DNA of 64,000 nt from Escherichia coli (lineage in GTDB: Bacteria > Pseudomonadota > Gammaproteobacteria > Enterobacterales > Enterobacteriaceae): NCBI RefSeq assembly GCF_003334385.1, contig NZ_QOWN01000009.1; one strand, 5' to 3'. Of the stretch, positions 5,404 through 5,559 are shown one piece after another. The notes under the pieces were generated by a model. That model did no database searches. It saw only the letters and a list, made by a program, of their open reading frames with translations, and was not told the DNA's origin. Each line of letters starts with the position of its first letter. Positions within the stretch are counted from its first letter, which is position 1. Position numbers and translations under genes: made by a program.

Positions 5404-5559
5404 TTAAGATATCAGAATCTTATGATTCGGGTAAAATTCTAAATAAATCAACATGTCATTAAAATCATCATAGCCATTAGCTATTTCGGCTAAAATAGAG
5501 ACTACATGTCTTCGGTCCATCTCACTTAAGGAGTGTAGTTCCGTTGTAAGTTTTTCCAT
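5404..5559 (-). CDS. possible 51-aa small protein (MEKLTTELHSLSEMDRRHVVSILAEIANGYDDFNDMLIYLEFYPNHKILIS)
   Basis: Hand-translated ORF below the 60-aa cutoff of the ORF track, in the AT-rich gap between yrhB and yrhA; no clear Shine-Dalgarno; it may correspond to the small gene annotated near here in K-12 (yrhD), but I cannot verify that. Confidence 0.3.
   Translation of the reverse strand: MEKLTTELHSLSEMDRRHVVSILAEIANGYDDFNDMLIYLEFYPNHKILIS

What the first reader, a model, noticed from the sequence alone, without database searches (positions are those of the whole stretch)
5404..5559. Unlisted 51-aa ORF inside the islet, between yrhB and yrhA
Hand translation of the minus strand gives an uninterrupted 51-codon ORF (MEKLTTELHSLSEMDRRHVVSILAEIANGYDDFNDMLIYLEFYPNHKILIS) that the 60-aa ORF track missed. 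Its position downstream of a toxin-immunity pair fits the pattern of orphan immunity or adaptor cassettes that accumulate 3' of polymorphic toxin loci. It could equally be a chance ORF in AT-rich DNA.
Basis: seen in the sequence. Interest (0 to 1): 0.4.

Follow-up and report, generated by a model that had tools for sequence, protein, structure and literature searches.

The report
yrhD: remnant of orphan immunity gene
The 51-codon reading frame is real, but it is the already annotated E. coli gene yrhD, and it looks like the decaying tail end of an orphan toxin-immunity gene rather than a new working small protein.

Summary
The ORF is at window 5404-5559 (-) as described. It is not unlisted. 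RefSeq annotates it as yrhD / protein YrhD in thousands of E. coli genomes, and it is Swiss-Prot P58037, of unknown function (PMC3575317).

It is not a chance ORF. Its frame stays open for 40 more codons upstream, to 5679. A profile built from five ~80-aa proteins of other bacteria matches that extended frame at E 6e-19. Two of those relatives overlap the 3' end of large toxins that share one C-terminal domain; one of these toxins carries a VENN motif. The Pantoea relative lies among orphan toxin/immunity modules behind a hemagglutinin-repeat (CdiA-type) gene.

YrhD is therefore the last 51 codons of an ancestral ~84-codon immunity-type gene. The full-length frame has no ATG, GTG or TTG before GTG 5568, and the annotated ATG corresponds to a conserved internal Met.

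The copy looks dead:
- there is no Shine-Dalgarno sequence before ATG 5559;
- 13 of 14 changes between alleles are non-synonymous or nonsense;
- all eight sampled alleles below 97% identity carry a stop codon or have lost the start, which is about a quarter of carrier genomes;
- no cognate toxin is present in the window.

A second immunity-gene remnant (5243-5401) and the intact Imm35 gene yrhB follow it.

The parts
5404..5559 (-). Annotated ORF yrhD (51 codons plus stop), the finding itself. Residues 1-35 match positions ~32-67 of the immunity-type family profile. The last 16 residues do not match the family C-terminus.
5407..5679 (-). Full stop-to-stop open frame of 91 codons that contains yrhD. 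The profile match covers about 5455-5652. There is no ATG/GTG/TTG upstream of GTG 5568, so the most conserved N-terminal part (KIIVNHAIFLEITSRKFLVRNLAV) has no canonical start codon.
5243..5401 (-). Remnant of a second small gene, in a different frame and starting right after the yrhD stop. It is homologous to residues 2-54 of an 85-aa protein conserved in Citrobacter and Budvicia, which in Budvicia follows an orphan Rhs C-terminal fragment. Here it has no start codon, an in-frame TAA in this allele, and its 3' third is missing.
4920..5204 (-). yrhB, an intact orphan immunity gene (Pfam Imm35, E 4.6e-23). It is retained in E. coli strains that lack the islet.
5654..6148 (-). yrhA (NCBIfam YrhA family, E 6.4e-35). 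Its start overlaps the yhhZ stop by 4 nt, so it is the presumed cognate immunity gene of the Hcp-HNH toxin.
6145..7323 (-). yhhZ, an Hcp with a C-terminal extension. The N-terminal Hcp1 domain was matched here; the HNH nuclease classification is taken from the literature.
   Evidence: PMC5714182; PMC6730261
5218..7561 (.). Low-GC islet (28-34% GC against 46-55% in the flanks). It is absent from E. coli GZM7, where yrhB sits next to yhhY. It contains yhhZ, yrhA, the yrhD frame and the second remnant.
5712..5741 (-). Sigma-70-like TAGAGA-18-TATATT inside the 3' end of yrhA. It has the same hexamers as the RpoD-holoenzyme SELEX site listed upstream of yrhD in K-12.
   Evidence: PMC3946193

Best explanation
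yrhD is the 3' two-thirds of a degraded orphan immunity-type gene in the tail of the yhhZ (Hcp-HNH toxin) / yrhA (immunity) islet. The ancestral gene encoded a protein of about 84 aa, predicted to be four helices. Its relatives elsewhere are encoded overlapping the 3' end of toxins that share one C-terminal domain, which is the usual position of the cognate immunity protein. In E. coli the copy arrived or survived without its toxin. It has lost a usable start codon for the full-length frame, its C-terminal end no longer resembles the family, and it is drifting neutrally. The annotated 51-codon ORF exists only because a conserved internal Met happens to be the first ATG. The most likely present function is none: a pseudogene fragment that annotation pipelines call as a small protein. 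Shown here: the homology, the gene contexts of relatives, the missing start codon, the allele disruptions and the substitution pattern. Inferred: that the family neutralises the adjacent toxin, and that the E. coli fragment makes no functional product.
For: Homology. tblastn of the 91-codon frame hits an 84-aa Rahnella protein (42% identity, E 5e-5) and an 82-aa Pantoea protein (35%, E 7e-3). An exhaustive HMMER scan adds three proteins of 79-83 aa. A profile of these five non-E. coli members hits window 5679..5407 at E 6e-19 and 61 bits, and hits nothing else in the six-frame translation of the window. The best-conserved block, AIFLEFT...LD.D.AV.MME, lies mostly upstream of the annotated ATG.
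Context of relatives. The P0064 gene overlaps by 4 nt the end of a protein of at least 743 aa that carries a VENN motif. The P0063 gene overlaps the end of a protein of at least 499 aa whose C-terminal domain is 65% identical to that one. The Pantoea copy lies behind a hemagglutinin-repeat (CdiA-type) gene among VENN fragments and immunity genes.
Decay. The full frame has no ATG/GTG/TTG before GTG 5568. There is no Shine-Dalgarno pairing before ATG 5559 (dG +0.1 kcal/mol). Variable sites fall 7/3/4 on codon positions 1/2/3, and changes are 1 synonymous against 13 non-synonymous or nonsense. That fits random mutation (P = 0.20) and differs from the three neighbouring genes (Fisher P = 0.007). 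Variability per site is 0.090, against 0.040-0.050 in yhhZ and yrhA and 0.105-0.13 in the flanking spacers. All eight sampled alleles below 97% identity carry Y39* or L23*, with or without M1I, and PGAP flags most of them as pseudogenes. The identity bands imply about 28% of the 3803 carrier genomes. No cognate toxin domain is present in the window.
Against: The K-12-type allele, with an intact 51-codon ORF, is present and nearly invariant in about 2700 genomes. This probably reflects recent common ancestry, since the whole islet is at least 99.6% identical in that group, but it does not exclude lineage-specific function. yrhB also lacks a Shine-Dalgarno sequence, so its absence is weak evidence in this AT-rich DNA. 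RpoD SELEX places a promoter-like site just upstream (PMC3946193), so the region may be transcribed. I could not reach ribosome-profiling or proteomic data for yrhD. Two supplementary data sets were searched and do not mention it, which proves little. The immunity function of the family rests on gene position only.
Confidence: 0.7

Rival explanations
1. YrhD is a genuine translated 51-aa protein in the K-12-type lineages. It would be a shortened immunity protein or a fragment with a new role, made from ATG 5559.
For: The ORF is intact in about 72% of carrier genomes. A sigma-70 SELEX site lies upstream (PMC3946193). The single-sequence AlphaFold model is moderately confident (pLDDT 74.6: two helices and a hairpin).
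Against: The ORF lacks the most conserved N-terminal third of the family. It has no Shine-Dalgarno sequence. The substitution pattern fits neutral drift, and nonsense or start-loss alleles are common while yhhZ, yrhA and yrhB stay intact in seven of the eight sampled disrupted alleles. No cognate toxin is in the window. No functional study was found in 12 papers that mention yrhD.
Confidence: 0.13
2. A near-full-length product of about 76 aa is still made from a non-canonical start. In-frame ATC 5634 or ATT 5631 lie 7-10 nt downstream of an AAGGA at 5646-5642. The gene would then be a working orphan immunity gene whose start has been mis-annotated.
For: The frame is open across the whole conserved region in all alleles examined upstream of the later stops. 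An SD-like AAGGA sits at a suitable distance from in-frame near-cognate codons (read directly from the sequence).
Against: Near-cognate ATC/ATT starts are very inefficient in E. coli (general knowledge). The AAGGA is AAGGT in the diverged alleles. The upstream part is as variable as spacer DNA (12 of 94 sites), with 7 of 33 residues changed in the 92%-identity allele. The downstream nonsense alleles would truncate this product too.
Confidence: 0.05
3. The segment now matters as non-coding DNA. It would be a transcribed spacer or leader that carries promoters for yrhB or affects H-NS silencing of the islet, and the ORF would be incidental.
For: RpoD and RpoS SELEX sites are reported upstream of yrhD and between yrhD and yrhB, with H-NS binding (PMC3946193, PMC5493296). 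Promoter-like hexamers are found at 5741-5712 and 5235-5206.
Against: The count of promoter-like sites in the region does not exceed shuffled controls (14 against 11.6 +/- 2.6). Strains without the islet keep yrhB with a different upstream sequence. No Rfam family matches.
Confidence: 0.1
4. It is a pure chance ORF in AT-rich DNA with no coding ancestry.
For: The ORF length is compatible with chance (17% of shuffles). The 51-aa query alone has no Pfam, NCBIfam, PHROG or PDB match.
Against: The family profile match at E 6e-19 spans 66 residues of the frame, and independent tblastn and phmmer hits support it.
Confidence: 0.02

Closest known systems
E. coli K-12 yrhD (b4612; Swiss-Prot P58037; RefSeq WP_001307436.1, 'protein YrhD')
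   Same: Identical sequence and position between yrhA and yrhB.
   Different: Nothing differs; this is that gene. The databases give it no function and no family. The upstream homologous part of the frame is not annotated.
Orphan immunity genes and fragments downstream of CdiA, Rhs and Hcp-toxin loci (polymorphic toxin systems)
   Same: It sits 3' of a toxin-immunity pair in a low-GC islet. Its relatives are encoded overlapping the 3' end of toxin C-terminal domains or among orphan modules. It is flanked by another immunity-gene remnant and by an Imm35 gene.
   Different: The copy is truncated, lacks a start codon for the conserved part, has no adjacent toxin fragment, and carries nonsense mutations in many strains. 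The family has no Pfam or NCBIfam model.
YrhA family (NF038335), the neighbouring immunity gene
   Same: Adjacent gene in the same orientation, and some short motifs look alike by eye.
   Different: No significant similarity: no NCBIfam hit for the 91-aa frame, and Smith-Waterman z-scores are below 2 against three YrhA homologues. It is not a paralogue.
Colicin/pyocin DNase immunity proteins (Im7/Im9 type, ~85 aa, four helices)
   Same: Similar size and a predicted four-helix architecture. The role by position is to neutralise a toxin C-terminal domain.
   Different: No sequence match to Pfam or PDB, and no Foldseek match below E 0.9. The resemblance is generic only.

Membership tests
Annotated E. 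coli protein YrhD | Same sequence at the same locus (between yrhA and yrhB, next to ggt) | tested here: met
   100% identity over 551 nt. The feature 'yrhD: protein YrhD' lies under the match in RefSeq genomes.
Immunity-type small-protein family (~80 aa; P0063-P0065, Rahnella UJD92436.1, Pantoea WP_141495966.1) | Significant sequence match to a profile of the family | tested here: met
   hmmsearch E 6e-19, 61 bits, profile positions 4-67 of 82, window about 5652-5455. Supported by tblastn and phmmer.
Immunity-type small-protein family (~80 aa) | Complete ORF with a start codon that covers the conserved N-terminal helix | tested here: not met
   The first ATG/GTG/TTG in the frame is GTG 5568, downstream of the AIFLEF block.
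Immunity-type small-protein family (~80 aa) | Conserved C-terminal segment (F[VI]xELPExxGLI) | tested here: not met
   The last 16 residues of YrhD (MLIYLEFYPNHKILIS) fall outside the profile match.
Cognate toxin-immunity pair of a polymorphic toxin system | Gene lies immediately downstream of, or overlaps, a toxin C-terminal domain | tested here: not met
   For the relatives it is met. For the window copy the upstream gene is yrhA, and the L021-type toxin domain gives no tblastn hit in the 64-kb window. It is an orphan.
Cognate toxin-immunity pair of a polymorphic toxin system | Protein binds and neutralises the toxin | not testable with these tools
   Needs co-expression or competition assays.
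Functional translated small protein | Reading frame conserved among close relatives, with an excess of synonymous change | tested here: not met
   Stops or start loss in 8 of 8 sampled alleles below 97% identity. 1 synonymous against 13 non-synonymous or nonsense changes.
Functional translated small protein | Translation initiation signal and measured translation | tested here: inconclusive
   No Shine-Dalgarno pairing, but yrhB lacks one too. No ribosome-profiling data were reachable, and two supplementary sets do not mention yrhD.
YrhA family / second tandem copy of the neighbouring immunity gene | Match to NF038335 or to YrhA homologues | tested here: not met
   No hit. Shuffle z-scores run from -0.4 to 1.9.
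Pfam Imm families (e.g. Imm35, colicin immunity) | Pfam profile match | tested here: not met
   No Pfam hit for YrhD or for the family alignment. By contrast yrhB matches Imm35 at E 4.6e-23.

The most novel reading that the evidence does not exclude
The K-12-type allele could be a fragment of an immunity gene caught in re-use. The internal Met became a start, and the codon that is a stop (TAG) or Trp (TGG) in other lineages is Tyr (TAT) here, giving a 51-aa product that is translated and has gained a lineage-specific role. Alternatively, a ~76-aa product from a near-cognate start still protects against a toxin domain delivered by competitors. Either way, a dead orphan cassette would be a source of new small proteins or a standing immunity reserve.
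Probability: 0.1. Interest if true: 0.55.

Novelty: new member of a known kind. Interest (0 to 1): 0.25.

Why it matters
The practical gain is annotation. A K-12 gene of unknown function (yrhD) can be re-labelled as the 5'-truncated remnant of an orphan immunity-type gene. The 450 bp between yrhA and yrhB reads as two decayed immunity cassettes in front of an intact Imm35 gene. That adds a documented example of decaying immunity cassettes at the 3' end of an Hcp-toxin islet. It also defines a small family of ~80-aa proteins, with no Pfam or NCBIfam model, that partners one toxin C-terminal domain (VENN-linked in one case). It does not reveal a new mechanism. If the fragment proved to be translated and functional, it would be a modest case of gene-remnant re-use.

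Tried and rejected
1. Frameshift reconstruction. I joined yrhD to the open frame downstream as one ancestral 106-aa gene. This was rejected: the downstream frame is a separate gene remnant, homologous from its own N-terminus (MKKIP...) to an 85-aa Citrobacter protein.
2. yrhD as a remnant of a second YrhA-like gene. Motifs looked similar by eye, but the similarity is not significant.
3. yrhD as the C-terminal tip of the toxin cognate to the downstream remnant. There is no similarity to the Budvicia Rhs C-terminus.
4. Direct searches with the 51-aa sequence. Pfam, NCBIfam, PHROGs, PDB and the 5.8-billion-protein word index returned only E. coli variants. Homologues appeared only once the upstream open frame was included.
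5. Genome-contig scan with YrhA. It gave only Citrobacter youngae, Lelliottia nimipressuralis and a contaminant contig. Neither species has a yrhD-like segment, so no outgroup was available to polarise the codon-39 states.
6. Rfam and repeat search: only chance-level matches.
7. Fold search with the family model: no informative match.
8. P0062, a 3000-aa hit in the representative search, is an unrelated repetitive protein whose matches to the family profile are all sub-threshold.
9. Ribosome-profiling papers: supplements were not held, or did not mention yrhD.

Full report
OBSERVATION. The mechanical ORF list shows the same frame as 54 aa from GTG 5568, which is why a 60-aa track missed it. 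The surroundings are the E. coli chromosome, in this order:
- ggt, 3113-4882 (+)
- yrhB, 4920-5204 (-)
- the ORF
- yrhA, 5654-6148 (-)
- yhhZ, 6145-7323 (-)
- yhhY
The N-terminal half of yhhZ matches the Hcp1 model TIGR03344 at E 3.8e-34.

The ORF is not unlisted in the wider sense. A 551-nt query around it matches 4049 of 5426 complete E. coli genomes, and RefSeq annotates 'yrhD: protein YrhD' (WP_001307436.1) under the match. It is Swiss-Prot P58037 / EcoGene EG14370, described as a hypothetical protein of unknown function (PMC3575317). Of the 12 papers that mention yrhD, none of the six E. coli papers I read reports a function. It appears there as a primer name, a microarray drop-out, a codon-bias table entry and a SELEX neighbour.

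IS IT MORE THAN CHANCE? Not by length. In dinucleotide-preserving shuffles of the 449-nt yrhA-yrhB spacer (31% GC), 17% contain an ATG-ORF of at least 51 codons, and 6% contain an open run as long as the observed one. The 51-aa sequence alone has no Pfam, NCBIfam, PHROG or PDB match. The word-indexed search of 5.8 billion proteins returns only E. coli variants.

The picture changed when I used the whole stop-to-stop frame, 91 codons at window 5679..5407, which starts inside the 3' end of yrhA.
- tblastn against plasmids found an 84-aa hypothetical protein of Rahnella aquatilis (42% identity, E 5e-5) and an 82-aa one of Pantoea dispersa (35%, E 7e-3).
- The exhaustive phmmer scan of 1.84 billion representatives added three proteins of 79-83 aa.
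- In the alignment, the strongest block (KII.N.AIFLEFT...LD.D.AV.MME.L..EL..LS) lies largely upstream of the annotated ATG. The YrhD Met1 aligns with a conserved internal Met.
- A profile built only from the five non-E. coli proteins hits the window frame at E 6e-19 (61 bits, profile positions 4-67 of 82, about window 5652-5455). It hits nothing else among 1855 six-frame segments.
So this is not a chance ORF.

WHAT THE FAMILY IS. The evidence is gene position.
- The P0064 gene overlaps by 4 nt the stop of a protein of at least 743 aa. That protein carries a VENN motif 400 residues before its end, which is the CdiA-type boundary of the toxin C-terminal domain.
- The P0063 gene overlaps the end of a protein of at least 499 aa whose last ~125 residues are 65% identical to that domain.
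- The Pantoea copy sits at the end of an array behind a 10.7-kb hemagglutinin-repeat (CdiA-type) gene. The array holds Imm63, VENN fragments, an endonuclease and a colicin-immunity gene.
- The Rahnella copy follows a toxin-like gene with an HAE...PVCGYC signature (my reading of the sequence) and a 133-aa gene.
This is the position of an immunity protein. That the family neutralises the adjacent toxin is inferred, not tested.

The family has no Pfam, NCBIfam or PDB sequence match. AlphaFold2 on the six-sequence alignment predicts four helices (pLDDT 77). Foldseek against the PDB gives nothing below E 0.9.

STATE OF THE E. COLI COPY.
1. The full-length frame has no ATG/GTG/TTG before GTG 5568, so the conserved N-terminal helix cannot be made from a canonical start.
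2. The last 16 residues of YrhD do not match the family C-terminus.
3. There is no Shine-Dalgarno pairing before ATG 5559 (dG +0.1 kcal/mol, against -5.3 for yhhZ). yrhB has none either, so this is weak evidence.
4. No cognate toxin domain is in the window.
5. Across nine alleles the yrhD codons show 14 variable sites, spread 7/3/4 over codon positions 1/2/3. One change is synonymous and 13 are non-synonymous, including two nonsense changes and a start loss. This fits random mutation (expected 20% synonymous, P = 0.20). It differs from yhhZ, yrhA and yrhB pooled (49 synonymous against 59 non-synonymous, Fisher P = 0.007). Variability per site is 0.090, against 0.040-0.050 in yhhZ and yrhA and 0.105-0.13 in the flanking spacer segments.
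6. Every sampled allele below 97% identity is broken. The 96.8%-identity type has Y39* (TAT to TAG). One allele adds a 9-nt duplication. The 92% type has L23*, with or without M1I. yhhZ, yrhA and yrhB stay intact in seven of these eight strains, and PGAP flags seven of the eight yrhD copies as pseudogenes.
7. By identity band, 2728 of the 3803 carrier genomes are at least 99% identical to the intact allele and 1075 are not. In an evenly spaced sample of the ranking, 29 of 39 full-length rows carry the intact annotation.
8. Codon 39 is TAT, TAG or TGG in the three main allele groups. The most parsimonious unrooted path runs through the stop codon. This is an inference, because no outgroup was available.

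The near-invariance of the K-12-type allele matches the near-identity of the whole islet in that group, so it says little about selection.

THE NEIGHBOURHOOD. Window about 5218-7561 is a low-GC islet (28-34% GC). It is missing in strain GZM7, where yrhB abuts yhhY. yrhD therefore belongs to the islet, and yrhB (46% GC, Pfam Imm35 at E 4.6e-23) lies outside it.

Directly after the yrhD stop, in another frame, window 5401..5243 is homologous to residues 2-54 of an 85-aa protein (47% identity, E 4e-13 in the local search). That protein follows the YrhA homologue in Citrobacter youngae at the same chromosomal site. The family is conserved in Citrobacter species and Budvicia. In Budvicia it starts 2 nt after an orphan Rhs C-terminal fragment. 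In E. coli it has no start codon, carries a TAA in the K-12-type allele and lacks its last third.

The tail of the islet is thus two decayed immunity-type cassettes followed by an intact orphan immunity gene. yhhZ is classed in the literature as an Hcp fused to an HNH nuclease, the same kind of effector as Hcp-ET1 (PMC5714182, PMC6730261). I did not test its nuclease domain.

COMPARISON AND VERDICT. The object is the known gene yrhD. What is added here is its ancestry, the correct extent of the homologous frame, and the evidence that it is decaying. It works like an orphan immunity-gene remnant of a polymorphic toxin locus and is best filed as one. It fails the tests for an intact family member (start codon, C-terminus, adjacent toxin) and for a conserved small protein. 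The chance-ORF alternative is refuted.

A functional 51-aa product, or a product from a near-cognate start (AAGGA at 5646-5642, in-frame ATC at 5634), cannot be excluded without translation data. I give these together about 0.15-0.2. Interest is low to moderate: a useful re-annotation and a small new immunity-type family, but no new mechanism.

Noticed in passing
window 5243-5401 (-): A second, unannotated gene remnant lies directly after the yrhD stop. It is homologous to the N-terminal 54 residues of an 85-aa protein conserved in Citrobacter and Budvicia. In Budvicia that protein follows an orphan Rhs C-terminal fragment.
   Followed up: yes
L005 (E. coli GZM7) 5771-6653; window 5218-7561: Some E. 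coli strains lack the whole yhhZ-yrhA-yrhD islet but keep a diverged yrhB (93% identity) next to yhhY. The Imm35 gene is therefore older than, or independent of, the Hcp-HNH islet.
   Followed up: partly
L013 (E. coli ETEC6335) 531-2934: yhhZ differs from the window by 2.9%, as in the 92%-identity (L003-type) alleles, while yrhA-yrhD-yrhB are at most 1.1% different. This suggests a recombination breakpoint inside the islet.
   Followed up: no
L011 (E. coli SCU-484) 525-2450; L006 (E. coli SX12) 6100-7428: The whole toxin-immunity module decays in some strains. In SCU-484 yhhZ and yrhA are frameshifted. In SX12 an IS1 replaces yrhA and yrhD and truncates yhhZ.
   Followed up: no
protein P0013 / P0015 (Logan assemblies): An apparently diverged but intact YrhD variant (76% identity) differs almost only by residue changes that C-to-T substitutions would produce (T>I, H>Y, S>F, A>V, P>L...). 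It looks like an assembly of bisulfite-converted or deaminated reads, not a natural allele.
   Followed up: partly
L009 (Lelliottia nimipressuralis) 4800-5954: The Hcp-HNH homologue is split into two ORFs (237 and 142 aa) upstream of an intact YrhA homologue, and nothing yrhD-like follows. It is probably a toxin pseudogene with its immunity gene retained.
   Followed up: no
L008 (Citrobacter youngae) 6771-7034: At the position of E. coli yrhB, Citrobacter has an unrelated 87-aa ORF with a weak hit to an Lrs14-type HTH regulator model (E 0.034).
   Followed up: no
literature: PMC3309015: That paper ascribes methionine-to-cysteine conversion to the E. coli yhhZ-yrhAB cluster. This looks like a confusion with the unrelated Bacillus subtilis yrhA/yrhB (mccA/mccB) genes (the latter from my own knowledge). 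The E. coli genes are an Hcp-nuclease toxin and immunity proteins.
   Followed up: partly
window 5455-5420 (-), YrhD residues 35-47: The sequence DMLIYLEFYPNHK weakly resembles the family's own N-terminal motif (D.AIFLEFTDE; 3 bits, not significant). It might mark a junction with a second truncated copy.
   Followed up: partly
L021 2-2233 and L024 2-1501 (metagenome contigs): The toxin C-terminal domain partnered with this immunity-type family (WVDEN...GARSNP...FDG.D..V.DRK...RWEVP) has no NCBIfam or PDB match. Its only hit is to PADLOC candidate model PDC-M17A (E 1.4e-5). The D...DRK pattern suggests a PD-(D/E)xK nuclease, which was not tested.
   Followed up: partly
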